Of a stretch of 64,000 nt of DNA, positions 46,043-53,938 are shown one piece after another. The notes under the pieces were generated by a model. The model saw nothing but the letters and a program-made list of their open reading frames with translations. It was not told the origin of the DNA and made no database searches. Origin of the DNA: a candidate division WWE3 bacterium (GTDB taxonomy: Bacteria; Patescibacteriota; WWE3; UBA101185; UBA10185); the NCBI GenBank assembly GCA_003599255.1, contig QZJF01000017.1, positions 113,278 to 177,277 of the forward strand, given 5' to 3'. A program made the position numbers and the translations under genes. Numbering within the stretch: position 1 is the stretch's first letter; every line of letters begins with the position of its first letter.

Positions 46043-49000
46043 ATGCCGAAGAAAAATGTAATTAAAAAATCTGCCATGGTACCTACTGCGCTTATTGCGG
46101 GTGGCGCCGGTTTCATAGGGTCTCACTTATGCGAAGCACTTCTTTCACGTGGGGCACGTGTAATTGTTCTTGACAATTTCAACACCGGCAAAGAAATTCA
46201 TATAAATCACCTTTTGCAAAATCCTAATTTTGCCCTTTATAACGTCGATATAAATACTGGGCTTCCGCCCGAAATCGAAAGTGTGGATTACATATTTCAT
46301 CTGGCGGGATTAGAAGAATATCTATATAGCAAGGAAAGTGTGAACTTGAACTCGCTTCTGACCAATGCTCTCGGCACTAAAAACTTATTGGATCTTGCCC
46401 AGAGATCTCAAGCAAAATTCCTTTTGGTCTCCAGCATTGACGTATACGAAGGTAGGATGTCACAACTTGAACTCGAAGAATACTTCGGTAGCACAAAAAT
46501 TGATGAGAACAAGTACATGCTCACTGAGGCAAAGAGGTATGCCGAAGCGCTTGTTTGGGAGTATTACAAGAAAAATGATACGGACTTGAGAATTGTCCGG
46601 TTGCCGGAAATTTTTGGTCCCAGAATGGATTTGTCCGCCAGCGGCAGCTTGGGCATGTTTCTAAAAGACCTGATTGAGCATCGCGATATCACAGTTTACG
46701 GGGAGGGATCTAACAAGGAATATTACCTTTACATTACAGATGCGATTTCCGGGATTTTGAAGACATTGTTCGGCGATAAATCCAAGGGAAATATTTATTC
46801 GTTGGTCTGGAATGTTCCGACAACGGTTCTTCAACTTGCTTATGTTGTAAAATCTGTTGCCGATAGAGAAGTAAATATTGTATTTAAAAACAATACTTCG
46901 AAAGATAACTACAGACCGAATCCCAAAATACCAGACTCATTCAACCTCCGCCAGCTCGGTTGGGAACCACGCATGGATATAAAGGACGGAATAGTCAAGT
47001 CGCTAGAATATTTCGGATATAAACCAAACGCGCACAGTTTCAAACCGGCGGAACTGATTGAAAAAAAGACCTCAATCACTCAGGAGTTACCGAAAGAGGA
47101 AACAGGTGAGATTTTTACTTTGCAAGATGTAAAGGAACCAGAGAAGGAAATTGCAGTTCCGGTTCTTCACGAGATTTCCGAGCCCGCACCCCCGGCGGGC
47201 CCGTCCGAACCGGTTCAGTCGATCCAGAGCGCTCCGGTGACCGCTGAAAATCCTTACGGTAATCTTCAAAGTTTTCACACCGGACAGCCTGAGATAGCAG
47301 TGAAACAAAAACAAAAAATTAAGCTGCTGAATTTTGGAAAATTATTCTCAGTAAAAGTCTTAAGTATTTTCGGCGTATTGTTTTCGGCAATGCTAATATT
47401 TTTTGCTCTTCCCGGTGTACAGACATATTTCTATACCAGAGCAAGTATGAACTCAATGTCAGCACTGGCAACATCGGCCGGCCAACTCGATTCGGCGGGT
47501 GTACGGTCAAACGCACGCAGTTCTTATCAAAATCTTGTAAAAGCTAAAAATTCATTCGCCAATCTCAAGTGGTTCTTTTTAGTATCGGGAAAACAAAGCC
47601 AATTTGAAAGTATGGATAAACTTTATAGCTCGTTGGCTTACTTCTCAAAATCCGGATATCAGATGGCGGAGACCATAGAACCGTTTGAAAATCTTTGGGA
47701 AGTTGTGCGTCCGGACACGGCGGAGGAACTCGATCCCGCGAGCTTTGAAAGTGTTAAATCCAATGTAGATCAGGCAAAAAACACTTTCCAGCTTGCCCTG
47801 GCTGATTTTAAGCAGGTTAACATTCAGGATTTGCCCGTACAAGTCAGGGAAAAAGCTGTTGAATATCAGAAAGTTTTAGACATAACTTCGAAAGGTTTAG
47901 ATATGGCCGCTCCTGTGCTTTCTTCTTTTCCAAACATATTGGGTGCGGATGAATCTAAAAAATACATGATCCTGTTTCAAAACTCTAACGAAATAAGACC
48001 TACCGGTGGATTCATCGGGTCATATGGTTTGTTGACTTTTGAAAAGGGAAAAATAAAAGATCTATTGATAGACGATATATACAATCCGGATGGACAAATA
48101 GAATTGCGGAATATAAATGTTGCACCCCCTGAACAAATTAAAGAATTTCTTAACGAAGAAAGATTGTATATAAGAAATGCAAATTGGGATCCGGATTTTC
48201 CGGTCTCAGCCAATACGATTTCTGATCTTTATTTTAAAGTAACAGGAGAGAGTCTCGACGGGGTTATCGCAGTTGATCTATATTTTGTTCAGAATATTCT
48301 AAAAGCTACCGGGCCAATATTTTTAACTGCCTATAATGAAGAAATTAATGCCGAAAATCTTTATGAACGGGCTGAGTTTCACAGCGAGTTCAATTACGAG
48401 AACGGTTCGGACAGCAAACGATCTTTTCTGACTGTTTTAGGAAGCAAGCTTCTTGAAAAAATATTCTCGTTATCAAGAGAACAACTTCCGCAGCTATTTA
48501 CCGAAATGGGGTACGCACTCAATGACAGACATTTACTAATAACGCTGGCAAACGACCCCCTAAACGCTTTATTGGAGGAACAGCATTGGAATGGAGGTGT
48601 TGTTGACACAACAAGTGATTATCTCTATGTGGTAAATGCAAATGTGGGCGGAACCAAAGCAAATTATTATGTAAAAAATAAAATGAATTACCACGTGAAG
48701 TCTCTAACCAGGGATGGACTATTGAGAGGGGTTCTCGTTTTGGAATACGTACATACCGGTACAGACGATGCTTGGCCTGGGGGACCTTATGAAAACTATG
48801 TTAGAGTGTTGACCCAGGAAGGATCCAAGTTAACAGGTGCGACATTGAAAGTAAACGATGGAGAGGAAAAAGATGTTCTAAATGAAATAAGGGTATCTAC
48901 TTTGAGTAAGTATAATGTTTTTGGCACAAGTTTTACGCTTAATCCGACTGAAAAAATAACCCTGACAATAGAATATGATTTGCCTGCAGCATTCACATTG

Positions 49001-49198
49001 ACTAAGGAGCAAAAAGAATACGCATTGTATTGGCAGAAACAATCCGGGACTCATCATGACGAATATGAATTTTCGTTTGACGTGCCGTTCGGTTTTGAGA
49101 TCTCAACAACCACGGAAGGTTTAGTTAGGGAGGATGGTACGTTAAAGTCCATTGGGTCTCTTAATGAAGACAAAAAGTTTTATGCTAAACTTCAGTGA
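46043..49198 (+). CDS. Giant fusion protein: N-terminal NAD-dependent sugar epimerase/dehydratase (UDP-glucuronate decarboxylase-like) + Pro-rich linker + TM helix + ~600-aa extracytoplasmic domain of unknown function
   Basis: Residues 15-330 carry GGAGFIGSHL (Rossmann), YSKES-type and Y..AK catalytic positions typical of extended SDRs. Then a PAPPAGPSEPVQSIQSAPV linker, a TM helix (LFSVKVLSIFGVLFSAMLIFFAL), and a large external domain with a conserved-looking QNSNEIRPTGGFIGSYG segment. Confidence 0.6.
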   Translation: MPKKNVIKKSAMVPTALIAGGAGFIGSHLCEALLSRGARVIVLDNFNTGKEIHINHLLQNPNFALYNVDINTGLPPEIESVDYIFHLAGLEEYLYSKESVNLNSLLTNALGTKNLLDLAQRSQAKFLLVSSIDVYEGRMSQLELEEYFGSTKIDENKYMLTEAKRYAEALVWEYYKKNDTDLRIVRLPEIFGPRMDLSASGSLGMFLKDLIEHRDITVYGEGSNKEYYLYITDAISGILKTLFGDKSKGNIYSLVWNVPTTVLQLAYVVKSVADREVNIVFKNNTSKDNYRPNPKIPDSFNLRQLGWEPRMDIKDGIVKSLEYFGYKPNAHSFKPAELIEKKTSITQELPKEETGEIFTLQDVKEPEKEIAVPVLHEISEPAPPAGPSEPVQSIQSAPVTAENPYGNLQSFHTGQPEIAVKQKQKIKLLNFGKLFSVKVLSIFGVLFSAMLIFFALPGVQTYFYTRASMNSMSALATSAGQLDSAGVRSNARSSYQNLVKAKNSFANLKWFFLVSGKQSQFESMDKLYSSLAYFSKSGYQMAETIEPFENLWEVVRPDTAEELDPASFESVKSNVDQAKNTFQLALADFKQVNIQDLPVQVREKAVEYQKVLDITSKGLDMAAPVLSSFPNILGADESKKYMILFQNSNEIRPTGGFIGSYGLLTFEKGKIKDLLIDDIYNPDGQIELRNINVAPPEQIKEFLNEERLYIRNANWDPDFPVSANTISDLYFKVTGESLDGVIAVDLYFVQNILKATGPIFLTAYNEEINAENLYERAEFHSEFNYENGSDSKRSFLTVLGSKLLEKIFSLSREQLPQLFTEMGYALNDRHLLITLANDPLNALLEEQHWNGGVVDTTSDYLYVVNANVGGTKANYYVKNKMNYHVKSLTRDGLLRGVLVLEYVHTGTDDAWPGGPYENYVRVLTQEGSKLTGATLKVNDGEEKDVLNEIRVSTLSKYNVFGTSFTLNPTEKITLTIEYDLPAAFTLTKEQKEYALYWQKQSGTHHDEYEFSFDVPFGFEISTTTEGLVREDGTLKSIGSLNEDKKFYAKLQ

Positions 49199-49216: not shown

Positions 49217-50818
49217 ATGCCTTTAGCTGATTTACCACAAACAAATAAACAGCACGCGGTCCCTCAAAACATAATGGATGTTGAATTCAAGCTGATAGGG
49301 GATTTGACGATGAGACAATTTGCTTATCTGATGATTTGCGGCGGTATTAGTTATTTGGCCGCAGTCTCCGTAATAGGATTGTTCAAATGGCCTATTGTGG
49401 TGTTTTTTACATTACTGGGTTTAGGACTGGCTTTTGTTCCGATACAGGAAAGAGGTCTGGACGAATGGATAGTCAACTTTTTTAAAGCAATATATTCACC
49501 TACACAACGGATATGGCGAAAAGAGCCTTCGGTGCCTTCCGCGTTTATGTACGAAAATATTCAGTTAGTACGTCAGGAAATGATAACGCTGGCACCGACA
49601 TCCAGCAGAAGAAAACTGGAAGATTATTTGGAATACCAGCTTAAAGAGGAAAAAGAAGACCCTCTTGATATTCCGGAGAAGGAGTACATTATGAAAGTAA
49701 GGGAAATGGTAGGTATTATAGAGCCTGCGGAGCCTGCTGTTTCAGTTACATATGAGGAAGAGGAAGTGCAGGAAGTTGAAGAGCCCTCTGCTTTACCGCC
49801 GCAGGAACAACCTCAGTTCCAAGGAGAACCTCAAAAGCCAGGTGAGGAAACAAAACCCGAAAAACCGATAGTTCAAAAACCGGAACCGGCTTCTGATGAA
49901 AAGAAAAAAACTCCGGAAGAATTTGAAAAGAAATCTCACAGGATTAAAAGAGCGCGTGAGAGAGAAGCAAGAAGACAGCAAAGCGTTTCGGTAACACCGC
50001 TGACTCCGGATATGCATTCCGGAAGAAAGTTTGTAAACCTTCTGCCGTATGGCGGGGAACTCATTCTACCGATTCGTGGCGAAAAAGTATTACAAACTTC
50101 CGAACAGTTGGAGATTGAGGATGATATTCAGGAAAAAGCCGACAAACTTCAGAAACTTCTCGAACAAATAAAAGGCAGCGGTGCTATTAAGAAAGAAATT
50201 ACACCGGAGGTCCGGGTAGAACCCGAAAAGCTGGATGTTCAGCAAGGCGGAGAAGTCAATGTCGAAGCAGTTGAGGTAATAGAAGGTTTGAAACAAGAAA
50301 AGGATAGACTTTCCCAGGAGATCGAAAATCTTAGGATATCTAAAGAAACCGAGACTACTCCGAGTGTGGCAGAAGCAAAAGAAGAAATGATCAGGAGACT
50401 TCAGGCTGAGAAAGAAAAGACCCAATCTGAGTACGAGTCCCTGCAAAGACAGATTCTTGATTTACAAAATAAACTTAAAGAAAAACAAGAATTCGATTCC
50501 GGTCCCCAGGCCCCTTCAAAACCTGTGTATGCAAAAATACAGCCATTAACAAATAGGCCAAATGTGGTTTCGGGGGTTGTTAAGAAACAGGACGGAACCG
50601 TACTTGAGGGTGTATTATTAATCATTAAGAATCAAAAAGGAGAGGCGGTTAGGGCTTTGAAGTCAAATACCTTAGGACAGTTTACTCTTACAACGCCTTT
50701 ATCTAACGGAGTTTATACGGTAGAAGTTAGCTCTAATAATGGCACTGCATCCTTTGATATAATTTCTGTAGAGGCAAAAGGAGAAATAATCCCTCCAATT
50801 GAATTGGTGGGCAAATAA
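49217..50818 (+). CDS. PrgI/VirB3-like membrane protein with a long coiled-coil/Pro-Glu-rich extension and C-terminal carboxypeptidase-regulatory-like beta domain
   Basis: Residues 20-110 (MDVEFKLIGDLTMRQFAYLMICGGISYLAAV... two TM helices ...IYSPTQRIW) resemble the PrgI family of Gram-positive conjugation systems. These are followed by an E/P/K-rich segment, heptad-like coiled coils, and a C-terminal VVSGVVKKQDGTVLEGVLLIIKNQKGEAV...GVYTVEVSS segment. Confidence 0.5.
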   Translation: MPLADLPQTNKQHAVPQNIMDVEFKLIGDLTMRQFAYLMICGGISYLAAVSVIGLFKWPIVVFFTLLGLGLAFVPIQERGLDEWIVNFFKAIYSPTQRIWRKEPSVPSAFMYENIQLVRQEMITLAPTSSRRKLEDYLEYQLKEEKEDPLDIPEKEYIMKVREMVGIIEPAEPAVSVTYEEEEVQEVEEPSALPPQEQPQFQGEPQKPGEETKPEKPIVQKPEPASDEKKKTPEEFEKKSHRIKRAREREARRQQSVSVTPLTPDMHSGRKFVNLLPYGGELILPIRGEKVLQTSEQLEIEDDIQEKADKLQKLLEQIKGSGAIKKEITPEVRVEPEKLDVQQGGEVNVEAVEVIEGLKQEKDRLSQEIENLRISKETETTPSVAEAKEEMIRRLQAEKEKTQSEYESLQRQILDLQNKLKEKQEFDSGPQAPSKPVYAKIQPLTNRPNVVSGVVKKQDGTVLEGVLLIIKNQKGEAVRALKSNTLGQFTLTTPLSNGVYTVEVSSNNGTASFDIISVEAKGEIIPPIELVGK

Positions 50819-51521
50819 TATGGCGGAAAAGATTGTATCTACATCGCAAGATCACTTGGATATACTTGAAATCAAGAATGATATGGTAGTTTTGAAAAAT
50901 GGGGTGGTTTGTGCTGTTCTGCAGACTACGGCGGTTAACTTTGATCTCCTTTCTGAAATCGAACAAGACGCAATTATTGCCGCGTTTTCTATGCTGCTTA
51001 ACTCAATAACATTTCCGGTCCAAGTAGTGTTGCGATCTAAAAAACTCGACATCTCAAAATATATCGAAAAAATACAGAGAGTAGAAAGCAAAATCAGCGA
51101 TCCTTTAATGAAACATCAAGCTGAGGCATACAGGAAGTTTGTTCAGGAAGTTATAAGACAGAACGATGTTCTTGATAAAAAATTCTATGTGGTTGTTCCT
51201 TCGGGTGGGGGAGTTGACGGAGACCCAAACAGCGGTGCCTTTGATTGGCTCGCACGCCTTGCGGGTACACATAATAAGAGGATTGATGTAAATGTAGATA
51301 AAACCCTTAAAGACGCATCAATTCAGTTAGTTCCAAAAGTAGATCACGTCATAAAAGAGTTTAATAGAATAGGCGTCAGATCCAGGCAACTGACAACCCA
51401 GGAGTTAGTGGAAATTTATTTTGATATTTACAATCCAAGCAGTATTCATGGACAAAGAATCCGAACAAATATAGATGATTATACGACGGCGGTTGTAAAT
51501 CCGGCGATTATTGAGGAATAA
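50799..51521 (+). CDS. VirB4/TraE N-terminal-domain-like protein (possibly a detached first segment of the downstream ATPase)
   Basis: HLDILEIKNDMVVLKNGVVCAVLQTTAVNFDLLSEIEQDAIIAAFSMLLNSITFPVQV resembles the N-terminal segment of Gram-positive VirB4 homologues. The stop lies 2 nt before the next ATG, in another frame. Confidence 0.45.
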   Translation: MNWWANNMAEKIVSTSQDHLDILEIKNDMVVLKNGVVCAVLQTTAVNFDLLSEIEQDAIIAAFSMLLNSITFPVQVVLRSKKLDISKYIEKIQRVESKISDPLMKHQAEAYRKFVQEVIRQNDVLDKKFYVVVPSGGGVDGDPNSGAFDWLARLAGTHNKRIDVNVDKTLKDASIQLVPKVDHVIKEFNRIGVRSRQLTTQELVEIYFDIYNPSSIHGQRIRTNIDDYTTAVVNPAIIEE

Positions 51522-51523
51522 GA

Positions 51524-53938
51524 ATGGCAAAAAAGAAATTTAATTTATTTACAATGTTCAAAAAAAATAAACCCGTGGAAGGTCAGGAAGGCTCTCCGGA
51601 AGGAGCTACTTCCGGTGGAAAAACGCCTGCACAGATCCTCGCCGAAGGGATGGTTAATGTACGCGATATCATTGCGCCATCTGCGATGGAAATTGACTTT
51701 AATCATGTAAAGATCGGAAACACTTTTTACAGAACTCTTTTTGTCTCAGGGTACCCTAGGTTTGTTGGTGCCAACTGGATGTCTCCCGTCATAAATTTTG
51801 ATCACTCTTTGGACATTTCGATGTTTTATTATCCGGTTAAATCCAAGATGATTCTCGATGACCTTAGAAAGAAAATTACCGAGTTGGAAGCAACTATAAT
51901 GACCACCAGGGAAAAAGGGAGAATAATTGACCCTGTTGTTACCGCAGCATTGGAAGATGCTAATGCTCTTCAAGAACAGTTGGTCAAGGGTGTTGAAAAA
52001 TATTTTAAATTTTCCTTTTATATAACTATACCCGCGGCTTCTCAGGAGGAACTTGAAACGGTTACAGCCAGGCTGGAATCCACATTGGGTTCGCTGCTGT
52101 TAATCTCGAAAACAGCTTCGCTCCAAATGGAAGAAGCATTTCAGTCTACTATTCCTGCGGGATTGGACAAGCTTTTGATTACACGAAACATGGATACTAC
52201 CAGTTTGGCTACCACTTTTCCTTTCACTTCTTCGGACCTTACCATGGAGGAGGGAATTATGTACGGAATCAATCGACACAATGGTTCCCTTGTTATTTTC
52301 GAGCGGTTCTCAATGGAAAACGCGAACACAGTTGTCTTTGCGAAATCCGGTTCAGGTAAATCTTATTTCGTTAAATTAGAAGCTTTGCGACTAATGGTTT
52401 TTGGTGCGGAGGTCATGATCATTGACCCGGAGGAGGAATACAGATCTTTGTGTGACGCCGTCGGCGGCAATTATATAGACTTTTCGGCTAATTCACCTGC
52501 TAAAATTAACCCTTTTGACTTGTCGGGAATTGCAGTCGAGGGCGAGAACGAACTTGGCCAGAAACTTATTGCGTTAATTACGTTGTTTAAACTGATGTTG
52601 GGAGGTTTAACTCCTACCGAAGAAGCAATTCTGGACCGTGCACTTATTGAAACTTACAGAATAAAGGGTATTACCACAGATCCGGATACGCAGTCTACAA
52701 AAGAGCCTCCGGTTATGGAAGATCTGTACAAGATACTTTTGGGAAGTGATGAACCTGAAGCCAGGAGCATGGCAGAGAGACTGGAAAAATTCATTAAAGG
52801 TTCAATGACCGGTATTTTTGATGCCCAATCCAATATTGATTTAAACAGCAAGATGACCGTTTTCTCTACCAAAAATCTTGAAGAAGCATTGAGACCCATC
52901 GCGTTTTATATGATCCTCGATTTTATTTGGACAAGAATCAGAAAGGATCTAAGAAAGAGGATTTTGATTGTTGAAGAGGCCTGGTATCTTATGCAGAACG
53001 AAGATAGTGCCCGCTTTATTTACGGTATAGCAAAGAGAGCAAGAAAATATTATCTAGGATTAACTACGATTTCACAGGATGTTGACGATTTCTTAACGTC
53101 CGAGTACGGCAAGGCGATTGTTACCAACTCATCAATTCAGGTTTTGCTTAAACAGCACCCTGCGGCAATTGATAAAGTAGCGGAAACATTTTATTTATCG
53201 GAGGGAGAAAAAAGATTACTTCTTTCGGCTGCAGTAGGTGAAGGGCTTTTCTTTGCGGGGGCAAATCACGTGGCAATCAAGGTTATGGCTTCCGATGCGG
53301 AGCATAAGCTGATTACAACAAACCCGGAGGAGATTTTAAGACTCAAAGCGGAAGGGAAGATTCAGTCGAAGCAGCCAACAAAACCTGTATACAAACCCTA
53401 TACCCCACCGTCAGATCCCGGTAAATATACAACTTATGATTCTGAAGGTAATGTAAGACCAGAGTTTAAACCCGGTGCCGTTCCTCCGACACCCGCCCCG
53501 ATTCCCGCTCAACCAAAGCCGGAAGAACAAACGGTACAAAATCAGAATAAGGACACCGTTGAATCTGTAGCGCAACCTTTACCGAAAGAGGAAGAGACTC
53601 AGGAAGAAAAAATGCCCACAGCGGAACAGATTTTAAGTTCCGTTCAAGCAACAAAGGCAGAGAATTCACAACCTCCTGCCACTTCTCCTCAGGAGAACAA
53701 GAGTACTCCGAATCAGGGAACTCAGGGTAATGAACAAATAATAAAAAGTACGTTGACCGGTGAATCGATGCAGAAGAACCCACCGCAGGTTCCTCCGGCC
53801 AAACCTTCCTGGTTAAATTCCTCAAATCAACAGGTTGTCCAGAACAAGCCGCAGGAACAGCAGAGTCCTACTAACGAACAAAACAAAGAATCGGAAAAGA
53901 ACATGGATTCTCCTCAGGGTACGATAAGTCTCACCTAG
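51524..53938 (+). CDS. VirB4/TrbE/PrgJ-family type IV secretion ATPase with ~200-aa Pro/Gln/Asn-rich C-terminal tail
   Basis: Walker A (VVFAKSGSGKSYFV) and Walker B (ILIVEEAWYLMQ) are present. The N-terminal region (GNTFYRTLFVSGYPRFVGANWMSPV) is like the VirB4 membrane-proximal domain. Residues from about 600 to 804 are low-complexity (PTKPVYKPYTPPSDPGK...QPKPEEQTVQNQNK...). Confidence 0.75.
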   Translation: MAKKKFNLFTMFKKNKPVEGQEGSPEGATSGGKTPAQILAEGMVNVRDIIAPSAMEIDFNHVKIGNTFYRTLFVSGYPRFVGANWMSPVINFDHSLDISMFYYPVKSKMILDDLRKKITELEATIMTTREKGRIIDPVVTAALEDANALQEQLVKGVEKYFKFSFYITIPAASQEELETVTARLESTLGSLLLISKTASLQMEEAFQSTIPAGLDKLLITRNMDTTSLATTFPFTSSDLTMEEGIMYGINRHNGSLVIFERFSMENANTVVFAKSGSGKSYFVKLEALRLMVFGAEVMIIDPEEEYRSLCDAVGGNYIDFSANSPAKINPFDLSGIAVEGENELGQKLIALITLFKLMLGGLTPTEEAILDRALIETYRIKGITTDPDTQSTKEPPVMEDLYKILLGSDEPEARSMAERLEKFIKGSMTGIFDAQSNIDLNSKMTVFSTKNLEEALRPIAFYMILDFIWTRIRKDLRKRILIVEEAWYLMQNEDSARFIYGIAKRARKYYLGLTTISQDVDDFLTSEYGKAIVTNSSIQVLLKQHPAAIDKVAETFYLSEGEKRLLLSAAVGEGLFFAGANHVAIKVMASDAEHKLITTNPEEILRLKAEGKIQSKQPTKPVYKPYTPPSDPGKYTTYDSEGNVRPEFKPGAVPPTPAPIPAQPKPEEQTVQNQNKDTVESVAQPLPKEEETQEEKMPTAEQILSSVQATKAENSQPPATSPQENKSTPNQGTQGNEQIIKSTLTGESMQKNPPQVPPAKPSWLNSSNQQVVQNKPQEQQSPTNEQNKESEKNMDSPQGTISLT

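What the first reader, a model, noticed from the sequence alone, without database searches (positions are those of the whole stretch)
50799..53938. VirB4-like ATPase apparently split into two ORFs at a 2-nt junction; both pieces look like VirB4 N-terminal regions
The 240-aa ORF ends at 51521 and the 804-aa ATPase starts at 51524 in a different frame. The first resembles the extreme N-terminal segment of Gram-positive VirB4 homologues and the second begins with the next VirB4 segment. Combined length is 1044 aa. This is a genuine two-protein split, a frameshift from pseudogenisation or sequencing error, or a recoding site.
Basis: partly seen in the sequence, partly recalled or inferred. Interest (0 to 1): 0.5.

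Follow-up and report, generated by a model that had tools for sequence, protein, structure and literature searches.

The report
Naturally two-gene VirB4 secretion ATPase
[quoted passage not shown] It is not a frameshift, a sequencing error or a recoding site.

Summary
The ORF pair exists as described: TAA at 51519-51521, a 2-nt gap, ATG at 51524, different frames. The real start of ORF1 is ATG 50820 (233 aa), not TTG 50799. ORF1 and ORF2 are consecutive, non-overlapping segments of VirB4. Against a fused Patescibacteria VirB4 of 787 aa, ORF1 5-210 covers residues 6-204 and ORF2 50-610 covers 213-773.

The split is stable. All 120 closest ORF1 homologues are free-standing proteins of 229-235 aa. 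In 76 other species none of the pairs is fused, the gap ranges from -4 to +127 nt, and all three relative frames and all three stop codons occur. Both genes are under strong purifying selection (pN about 0.06-0.07, pS about 0.8).

The ORF2 frame is closed by a TGA at 51512-51514. That leaves only 51515-51518 for a frameshift, with no slippery site. A GAGGA Shine-Dalgarno sequence, formed by ORF1's last two Glu codons, lies 6 nt before the ATG.

The same order (VirB3-like, TrsD, truncated VirB4) occurs on staphylococcal pSK41 and B. thuringiensis pBMB68. The Patescibacteria version, close to dnaN/rnpA/rpmH, is published (PMC12102498). Verdict: already known, low interest.

The parts
49217..50818 (+). 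VirB3-like (PrgI family) membrane protein, 533 aa. It has an N-terminal PrgI domain (residues 15-99), a long E/K/P-rich linker and a C-terminal CarboxypepD_reg-like domain. It is the first gene of the three-gene module.
   Evidence: Pfam PF12666 PrgI scores 31.1 bits against a cut-off of 27. It lies directly upstream of the ORF1 homologue in 75 of 80 related loci. Its TAA ends 1 nt before ORF1's ATG.
50820..51521 (+). TrsD-like protein, 233 aa (the finding's '240-aa ORF'). It is the detached first ~200 residues of the VirB4 N-terminal domain plus a clade-specific 25-residue tail ending in NPAIIEE.
   Evidence: NCBIfam VirB4_plasma profile positions 112-233/894 (E 1.8e-10) and TrsD/TraD NF041427 (E 2.8e-7). 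BLASTP to the N-termini of fused VirB4s: residues 6-193 of the 754-aa Carboxydocella protein (E 2e-25) and 6-204 of the 787-aa Patescibacteria protein P0199 (44% identity, E 8e-54). There are 704 homologues, and the best 120 are all 229-235 aa. In the Foldseek search of the AF2 model, the top 14 PDB hits are all TrwK/VirB4.
51513..51517 (+). Shine-Dalgarno-like GAGGA for ORF2, formed by the last two Glu codons (GAG GAA) of ORF1, 6 nt upstream of ATG 51524.
   Evidence: Read directly from the sequence. An SD-like purine motif lies within 16 nt upstream of the ORF2 start in 46 of 77 loci, and the terminal dipeptide is EE in 59 of 77. That it functions as an RBS is inferred.
51519..51526 (+). The junction: TAA stop of ORF1 (51519-51521), 'GA' spacer, ATG of ORF2 (51524-51526).
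   Evidence: The ORF2 frame carries TGA at 51512-51514, so the two frames are both open only over 51515-51518, and there is no slippery heptamer there.
51524..53938 (+). VirB4 ATPase lacking the first part of its N-terminal domain, 804 aa. Its parts are a Lys-rich leader plus linker (residues 1-47), the remainder of the N-terminal domain (about 48-236), the ATPase domain (237-598) and a low-complexity P/Q/E/N-rich tail (about 615-804).
   Evidence: NF045971 CD1110-family VirB4, 380.5 bits, covering profile positions 184-735/752 only. VirB4_plasma covers 292-893/894. Pfam P-loop_TraG E 5.8e-32. PDB 4AG5 VirB4 C-terminal domain E 3.9e-51. ORF2 50-610 matches residues 213-773 of the fused P0199 at 64% identity.
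52340..52363 (+). Walker A motif (AKSGSGKS).
   Evidence: AKSG(A/S)GKSY is present in 65 of 80 related loci.
52961..52984 (+). Walker B motif, ILIVEEAW. The usual Asp is Glu, a trait conserved in this clade.
   Evidence: EEAW occurs in 47 related loci and DEAW in 16 others.

Best explanation
This is the PrgI(VirB3)-TrsD-VirB4 core of the chromosomal type IV secretion system of a WWE3 (Katanobacteria, Patescibacteria) bacterium, next to dnaN near the replication origin. VirB4 is encoded as two separate, translationally coupled genes. The 233-aa TrsD-like protein supplies the first ~200 residues of the VirB4 N-terminal domain. The 804-aa protein supplies the rest of that domain plus the ATPase. 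Shown here: the two are consecutive segments of one VirB4 chain. The two-gene state is conserved across dozens of species with independently conserved termini. Both genes are under purifying selection. No frameshift or readthrough signal is conserved. Inferred: ORF2 is initiated independently from the GAGGA/ATG placed at ORF1's stop, which would give roughly equimolar synthesis. The two polypeptides then re-associate non-covalently to rebuild the complete N-terminal domain. In the R388 structure this is the part of VirB4 that VirB3 wraps around at the membrane (PMC9259494). The PrgI-like protein would thereby anchor the ATPase hexamer. No relaxase or coupling protein lies nearby, so the machine probably does something other than conjugation, as proposed in the literature.
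For: Collinearity:
- NCBIfam profile coordinates are consecutive: ORF1 covers VirB4_plasma 112-233 and ORF2 covers 292-893; ORF2 covers CD1110 184-735/752.
- Against the fused Carboxydocella VirB4 (754 aa), ORF1 4-226 covers residues 6-193 (E 2e-25) and ORF2 48-611 covers 186-754 (E 9e-79).
- Against the fused Patescibacteria VirB4 P0199 (787 aa), ORF1 covers 6-204 and ORF2 covers 213-773. P0199 recurs in four assemblies.

Stability of the split:
- The 120 best ORF1 homologues are all 229-235 aa.
- In 76 other species none is fused; the gap runs from -4 to +127 nt; relative frames are 0/1/2 = 15/32/30; stops are TAA 56, TGA 13, TAG 8. These tallies are over 77 loci, including the window.
- The closest relative (91% identity, L001) has the two genes in the same frame with the stop retained.
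- Among the 150 best 50%-identity representatives, 149 lack the ATPase.
- Selection against L001: pN/pS is 0.072/0.841 for ORF1 and 0.055/0.793 for ORF2.
- Termini are conserved independently.

Synteny and precedent:
- PrgI-like, then ORF1, then ORF2 in 75 of 80 loci, with dnaN downstream in 47.
- pSK41 has TrsC, TrsD (227 aa), then TraE (672 aa). ORF2 61-596 matches TraE 49-626, so the split point is the same.
- pBMB68 has PrgI, a 227-aa protein, then a DUF87 protein with a 3-nt gap.

Fold: in the Foldseek search of the ORF1 model, the top 14 hits are exclusively TrwK/VirB4 (prob 0.91-1.00), and the next hit has E 0.41.

Literature:
- TrsD homologues are the most abundant T4SS component of Patescibacteria, mostly adjacent to virB4 and near dnaA/dnaN/rnpA/rpmH. 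The TrsD homologue is essential in S. epibionticum (PMC12102498).
- VirB3 wraps the VirB4 N-terminal domain (PMC9259494).
Confidence: 0.88

Rival explanations
1. A single VirB4 gene was broken by a frameshift, either a sequencing or assembly error or recent pseudogenisation.
For: The 2-nt gap and the change of frame look like a 1-nt indel, and the two ORFs are consecutive VirB4 segments.
Against: The same two-gene state occurs in 76 other species, with variable gaps, all three relative frames and all three stop codons. The 120 closest homologues are 229-235 aa. Both genes show strong purifying selection with saturated synonymous sites. ORF1 has an invariant C-terminus and ORF2 its own conserved leader, which are absent from the fused forms. 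An SD sequence and an ATG are correctly placed.
Confidence: 0.01
2. A programmed recoding site (-1/+2 ribosomal frameshift or stop-codon readthrough) produces a full-length fused VirB4 in addition to, or instead of, the two separate proteins.
For: The gap is very short and the genes are tightly coupled. A fused form exists naturally in another lineage (P0199).
Against: The ORF2 frame has a TGA at 51512-51514. A shift could therefore occur only within 51515-51518, where there is no X XXY YYZ slippery heptamer. The frame relation is not conserved (0/1/2 = 15/32/30), nor are the gap length or the stop codon. No conserved downstream structure was looked for, because the spacing itself varies from -4 to +127 nt. 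A fused product would include the ORF2 leader/linker, which natural fused proteins lack.
Confidence: 0.02
3. ORF1 is an independent paralogue: a duplicated VirB4 N-terminal module with its own regulatory or adaptor role, rather than the missing piece of ORF2. On this view ORF2 is functionally complete.
For: Many TrsD-like representatives carry long low-complexity tails with conserved C-terminal peptides, which suggests adaptor-like behaviour. The literature assigns TrsD no function. In Gracilibacteria, TrsD homologues are reported as not adjacent to virB4.
Against: ORF2 lacks the first ~185-290 positions of every full-length VirB4 profile, and ORF1 matches exactly those positions. Fused proteins contain a single copy of each segment, with only about 8 residues between them. 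Adjacency and tight coupling are conserved.
Confidence: 0.08

Closest known systems
TrsD-VirB4 pair of the Patescibacteria (CPR) type IV secretion system (Quinonero-Coronel et al. 2025, PMC12102498; essential T4SS of Ca. Southlakia epibionticum, Wang et al. 2023, PMC10633639)
   Same: A free-standing TrsD-like protein lies immediately upstream of virB4, with a PrgI/VirB3 homologue beside it. The location is chromosomal, next to dnaN/rnpA/rpmH near the origin, and no relaxase or coupling protein is nearby.
   Different: Nothing essential differs. This is a WWE3 (Katanobacteria) instance. Clade-specific details are the 25-residue tail ending in NPAIIEE on the TrsD-like protein, the Walker B motif EEAW, and the ~190-residue low-complexity tail on VirB4.
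TrsD/TraD + TrsE/TraE of staphylococcal conjugative plasmids pGO1/pSK41 (the pGO1 subclass of MPF-FATA), and the equivalent pair on B. thuringiensis pBMB68
   Same: The gene order is the same: VirB3-like, a ~227-aa protein, then a truncated VirB4 of 632-672 aa, with short gaps. The split point is the same (ORF2 61-596 matches TraE 49-626). The VirB4 N-terminus has a Lys-rich leader.
   Different: Sequence similarity is only remote: NF041427 gives 30.5 bits against a cut-off of 200, hhalign gives 46.7% probability to pSK41 TrsD, and 96.6% to the pBMB68 protein. Those systems are plasmid-borne conjugation machines with a relaxase, VirD4, VirB6 and VirB1. Here the module is chromosomal and stands alone.
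Full-length single-chain VirB4 (TrwK of R388; CD1110-family VirB4 of Firmicutes; fused Patescibacteria VirB4 MEK7091100.1, here P0199)
   Same: ORF1 plus ORF2 are collinear with the whole chain. The ATPase domain and Walker A motif are conserved. The fold of ORF1 matches TrwK.
   Different: There are two polypeptides instead of one. The break lies inside the N-terminal domain, not at the boundary between the N-terminal and ATPase domains. The split forms add a tail to the first protein and a leader/linker to the second.
VirB3-VirB4 fusion proteins (for example on Campylobacter plasmids)
   Same: This is another case where the boundaries between VirB3, the VirB4 N-terminus and the ATPase are rearranged at gene level while the parts stay adjacent.
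   Different: The direction is opposite: fusion rather than fission. No VirB3-VirB4 fusion was reported in Patescibacteria. One low-coverage MAG here (L038) shows a possible PrgI-TrsD in-frame fusion.

Membership tests
VirB4 family T4SS ATPase (ORF2) | Scores above the curated cut-off of a VirB4 model | tested here: met
   NF045971 (CD1110-family VirB4) scores 380.5 bits against a cut-off of 325, E 1.6e-113. Only profile positions 184-735/752 are covered.
VirB4 family T4SS ATPase (ORF2) | C-terminal ATPase domain homologous to a solved VirB4 structure, with a Walker A motif | tested here: met
   PDB 4AG5, E 3.9e-51, over residues 237-598. AKSGSGKS lies at 52340-52363.
VirB4 family T4SS ATPase (ORF2) | Canonical Walker B motif hhhhDE(A)W | tested here: inconclusive
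   The motif is ILIVEEAW, with Glu in place of Asp. The change is conserved in 47 related loci, so it is not decay. Its catalytic consequence was not tested.
VirB4 family T4SS ATPase (ORF2) | Complete N-terminal domain in the same polypeptide | tested here: not met
   ORF2 starts matching at profile position 184 (CD1110), 292 (VirB4_plasma) and 238 (TIGR00929). The missing part is encoded by ORF1.
TrsD/TraD family (ORF1) | Scores above the curated cut-off of NCBIfam NF041427 | tested here: not met
   30.5 bits against a cut-off of 200, E 2.8e-7, profile positions 17-95/201. ORF1 is a remote homologue, not a member of the narrow NCBIfam subfamily.
TrsD/TraD family (ORF1) | Free-standing ~200-230-aa protein homologous to the VirB4 N-terminus, encoded between a VirB3-like gene and a truncated virB4 | tested here: met
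   The arrangement matches pSK41 and pBMB68.
TrsD/TraD family (ORF1) | Match to Pfam PF26593 ('TraC-like domain', as named by UniRef) | not testable with these tools
   All 120 close homologues carry a precomputed PF26593.2 annotation. The Pfam copy searched here returned no such hit for ORF1, presumably because it lacks that model.
Programmed ribosomal frameshift / recoding site | Slippery sequence within an overlap of the two frames, with a conserved frame relationship among relatives | tested here: not met
   The two frames are both open only over 51515-51518, with no slippery heptamer. Relative frames across the 77 loci (including the window) are 15/32/30, and gaps run from -4 to +127 nt.
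Pseudogene / assembly frameshift | Disruption not shared by relatives; relaxed selection | tested here: not met
   The arrangement is shared by 76 of 76 informative species. pN/pS is about 0.07-0.09, with saturated pS.
Conjugative MPF-FATA T4SS (complete system) | Relaxase, coupling protein (VirD4), VirB6 and VirB1 encoded with virB4 | tested here: not met
   None was found among the window's larger ORFs or the neighbours of the module, which are housekeeping genes only. Small ORFs such as pilins were not examined.

The most novel reading that the evidence does not exclude
The split may be more than a neutral fission. Across Patescibacteria, TrsD-like proteins keep lineage-specific short C-terminal peptides. 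Among the 150 best representatives, 32 end in LPP(I/L)(A/P)EI at the extreme C-terminus, 22 carry PF(V/I)VEEL near the end, and the WWE3 clade ends in NPAIIEE. These peptides are tethered by linkers of 0 to about 450 low-complexity residues. The split VirB4s keep a Lys-rich N-terminal leader. These could be docking motifs that let the N-terminal module be recruited separately. That might allow a stoichiometry different from the ATPase, as with the VirB3-bound 'central' and VirB3-free 'outside' VirB4 copies in R388. It might also link VirB4 to other envelope partners. If so, the two-gene state would be a regulatory or assembly feature of the essential Patescibacteria T4SS.
Probability: 0.15. 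Interest if true: 0.4.

Novelty: already known. Interest (0 to 1): 0.12.

Why it matters
For genome annotation, this junction should not be 'repaired', flagged as a pseudogene or annotated as a recoding event. The upstream 233-aa 'hypothetical protein' should be labelled as the TrsD-like N-terminal module of VirB4.

Biologically, it is one more instance (WWE3/Katanobacteria) of the origin-proximal T4SS core, which is widespread in Patescibacteria and essential in the one species tested. The comparison with natural fused forms pins the break point precisely, between about residues 204 and 213 of the fused chain and inside the N-terminal domain. It gives a concrete, testable proposal for the so far unassigned function of TrsD: completing the VirB3-binding N-terminal domain in trans.

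Tried and rejected
1. The first AF2 model of ORF1, built from a 15-sequence alignment, had mean pLDDT 42 and was unusable. A 121-sequence alignment gave pLDDT 67.
2. A profile search of ORF1 against PDB sequences found nothing meaningful (best E 0.4, unrelated protein). Only the fold search recovered TrwK.
4. Pfam gave only a sub-threshold TraC_F_IV hit for ORF1 (E 0.034).
5. I tested the idea that ORF1's C-terminal peptide (VVNPAIIEE) is a duplicated copy of the strand where VirB4 resumes (IIAPSAMEI). BLAST had aligned both to the same 9 residues of the fused Carboxydocella protein. A PSSM of the VirB4 strand, scanned over 141 TrsD-like tails, placed its best hit at the C-terminus no more often than chance (24 observed, 24.0 expected; only 4 hits were significant, none of them C-terminal). 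Rejected. The gapless PSSM would miss a match that needs one gap.
6. dN/dS could not be computed because synonymous sites are saturated even against the closest relative. Raw pN and pS are reported instead.
7. I looked for further T4SS genes in the window and found none among the larger ORFs.


Full report
**Observation.** The window has an ORF ending with TAA at 51519-51521 and an 804-aa ORF starting at ATG 51524. The spacer is 2 nt ('GA') and the frames differ. The 240-aa reading from TTG 50799 overlaps the end of the upstream gene. The upstream gene's TAA (50816-50818) is followed after 1 nt by ATG 50820, and all 120 closest homologues are 229-235 aa and align from that ATG. The first protein is therefore 233 aa. 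A GAGGA motif (51513-51517), made by the final Glu-Glu codons of ORF1, lies 6 nt before ORF2's ATG. The ORF2 frame carries a TGA at 51512-51514, so both frames are open together only over 51515-51518, and that stretch has no slippery heptamer. The A6 run at 51529-51534 lies after the ATG and cannot join the frames.

**What the two proteins are.**
- ORF2 passes the curated cut-off of the CD1110-family VirB4 model (380.5 bits against 325), but matches only profile positions 184-735 of 752.
- ORF2 matches the Mbov_0397 VirB4 model at 292-893 of 894.
- It has the P-loop_TraG domain.
- Its residues 237-598 match the solved VirB4 C-terminal domain 4AG5 (E 3.9e-51).
- Walker A is AKSGSGKS.
- Walker B is ILIVEEAW. 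The Asp-to-Glu change is conserved in 47 related loci, against DEAW in 16 others.
- ORF1 matches the same Mbov_0397 VirB4 model at positions 112-233, and the stand-alone TrsD/TraD family at E 2.8e-7, far below that family's cut-off.

**Collinearity with natural fused proteins.**
- Carboxydocella plasmid VirB4 (754 aa, L081): ORF1 4-226 aligns to residues 6-193 (E 2e-25) and ORF2 48-611 to 186-754 (E 9e-79).
- Fused Patescibacteria VirB4 (P0199, 787 aa, NCBI MEK7091100.1, four 787-aa members from independent assemblies): ORF1 5-210 aligns to 6-204 (44% identity, E 8e-54) and ORF2 50-610 to 213-773 (64% identity). Only 8 residues lie between the two segments.
- The two ORFs are therefore consecutive, non-overlapping VirB4 segments. 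The break lies inside the N-terminal domain, not at its boundary with the ATPase.

**Stable split, or frameshift or recoding?**
- A scan of one genome per species returned 80 loci (WWE3, Dojkabacteria/WS6, Beckwithbacteria and others; 39-91% ORF1 identity).
- In all 76 loci that contain both parts, the genes are separate.
- The tallies in this and the next item are over 77 loci, counting the window itself. The gap ranges from -4 (ATGA overlap) to +127 nt, the relative frame is 0, 1 or 2 in 15, 32 and 30 loci, and the stops are TAA 56, TGA 13 and TAG 8.
- The last two residues are EE in 59 loci.
- The closest relative (L001, 91% identity) has the two genes in the same frame with the stop retained.
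- ORF1's C-terminus (...VNPAI(I/V/L)EE) is essentially invariant in the clade. ORF2 begins with a conserved M.LN.F.MFKKK leader, then a variable 15-70-residue linker, then the conserved ...LAEGM.NVRDIIAPSA.E.DF. The fused forms lack both the tail and the leader.
- Against L001, pN/pS is 0.072/0.841 for ORF1 and 0.055/0.793 for ORF2. Synonymous sites are saturated and amino-acid change is strongly constrained.
- An exhaustive profile search found 2474 representatives at 50% clustering. In the top 150 the domain is always N-terminal, and only P0199 carries the ATPase.
- These results exclude sequencing error, pseudogenisation and a conserved recoding signal.

**Context and precedent.** The order PrgI-like (VirB3 homologue, Pfam PF12666 above cut-off), then ORF1, then ORF2 is kept in 75 of 80 loci. 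dnaN lies on the opposite strand downstream in 47 loci. The rest of the window is housekeeping: murJ, uvrD, gap, alaS, groEL, hsp20, RNase H, dnaN, jag, yidC, rnpA, rpmH. No relaxase, VirD4 or VirB6 occurs among the larger ORFs.

The same gene order occurs on bona fide conjugative plasmids. In S. aureus pSK41 it is TrsC-like, TrsD (227 aa), then DUF87/TraE (672 aa). ORF2 61-596 aligns to TraE 49-626, which is the same split point. In B. thuringiensis pBMB68 it is PrgI, a 227-aa protein, then a DUF87 protein of 632 aa with a 3-nt gap. The hhalign probability of the ORF1 family to that 227-aa protein is 96.6%. To pSK41 TrsD it is only 46.7%.

**Literature.** Quinonero-Coronel et al. 2025 (PMC12102498) report the following:
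- It is the most abundant T4SS component in Patescibacteria: 2,272 homologues, of which 1,664 are associated with virB4.
- PrgI/VirB3 homologues accompany it.
- The locus commonly lies near dnaA/dnaN/rnpA/rpmH.
- The TrsD homologue is essential in Ca. S. epibionticum.

Wang et al. 2023 (PMC10633639) showed that this T4SS is essential and lacks a relaxase and a coupling protein. The arrangement in this window is therefore already known.

**Mechanism.** Shown: two coupled genes encode consecutive VirB4 segments, and both are conserved and constrained. Inferred: ORF2 is translated independently from the SD/ATG at ORF1's stop. The TrsD-like protein then re-associates with the truncated VirB4 to rebuild the N-terminal domain. 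In R388 this is the part around which VirB3 wraps at the membrane (PMC9259494). The adjacent PrgI-like protein would thereby anchor the ATPase. This supplies a specific hypothesis for TrsD's unassigned function. It was not tested here, because no multimer prediction or experiment was available.

**Rejected idea.** BLAST aligned both ORF1's tail and ORF2's first conserved strand to the same 9 residues of one fused protein, which suggested a duplicated strand at the break. A PSSM test over 141 TrsD-like tails gave no enrichment at the C-terminus (24 observed, 24.0 expected).

**Verdict.** Of its three explanations, only the genuine two-protein split holds. The arrangement is an already described feature of the Patescibacteria T4SS and of pGO1-type Gram-positive conjugation systems. 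Interest is low.

Noticed in passing
L067:5325-8909 (contig CAZTHI010000003.1): The VirB4 homologue in this related locus is 1194 aa because an intein is inserted next to the P-loop. It matches Intein_splicing over residues 296-861 and carries a LAGLIDADG_3 homing endonuclease at 511-594.
   Followed up: partly
window 49217-50818: The VirB3-like PrgI protein is unusually long (533 aa). It has a PrgI domain at 15-99, a ~350-residue E/K/P-rich linker, and a C-terminal CarboxypepD_reg-like beta-sandwich domain (451-509, just below the Pfam cut-off). The C-terminal part is conserved in 70 of 80 related loci.
   Followed up: partly
window 46043-49198: This is a 1051-aa fusion of an NAD-dependent sugar epimerase/dehydratase (residues 16-243) with a DUF4012 domain (636-775). 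It lies directly upstream of the T4SS module and is conserved there in 35 related loci.
   Followed up: no
window 52961-52984: The Walker B motif of VirB4 reads ILIVEEAW, with Glu replacing the usual Asp. EEAW is conserved in 47 WWE3-type loci, whereas 16 other Patescibacteria loci and the fused P0199 keep DEAW.
   Followed up: partly
window 53366-53935: ORF2 ends in a ~190-residue P/Q/E/N-rich low-complexity tail that other VirB4s lack. ORF2 length varies from about 590 to 926 aa among non-intein relatives, mostly through this tail.
   Followed up: no
L038:3438-5696 (JBAZBO010000012.1, assembly coverage about 0.86x): In this locus the PrgI-like gene and the TrsD-like gene form one 752-aa open reading frame (...EIVGKYSTPKVTATTQEHLD...). 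This is either a natural VirB3-TrsD fusion or an error in a very low-coverage assembly.
   Followed up: partly
proteins P0121-P0270 (TrsD-like representatives); window 51498-51518 for the local version: TrsD-like proteins carry lineage-specific conserved C-terminal peptides after linkers of 0 to about 450 low-complexity residues. Of 150 representatives, 32 end in LPP(I/L)(A/P)EI (that core occurs only twice in 53,147 other positions), 22 have PF(V/I)VEEL near the end (none elsewhere), and the WWE3 clade ends in NPAIIEE. Their function is unknown.
   Followed up: partly
window 51524-51571; L083:5637-5670; L084:26584-26620: Split VirB4 proteins start with a short hydrophobic, Lys-rich leader in distant lineages: MAKKKFNLFTMFKKNK here, MAKAKEKKKK in pBMB68 and MIMAFLKKKKQ in pSK41. 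Fused VirB4s lack it.
   Followed up: no
P0199 (NCBI MEK7091100.1) and cluster members P0272-P0275: A minority Patescibacteria lineage encodes the TrsD-like segment and the ATPase as one 787-aa chain. The form was recovered from several independent assemblies. Whether it is ancestral or a secondary re-fusion was not determined.
   Followed up: partly
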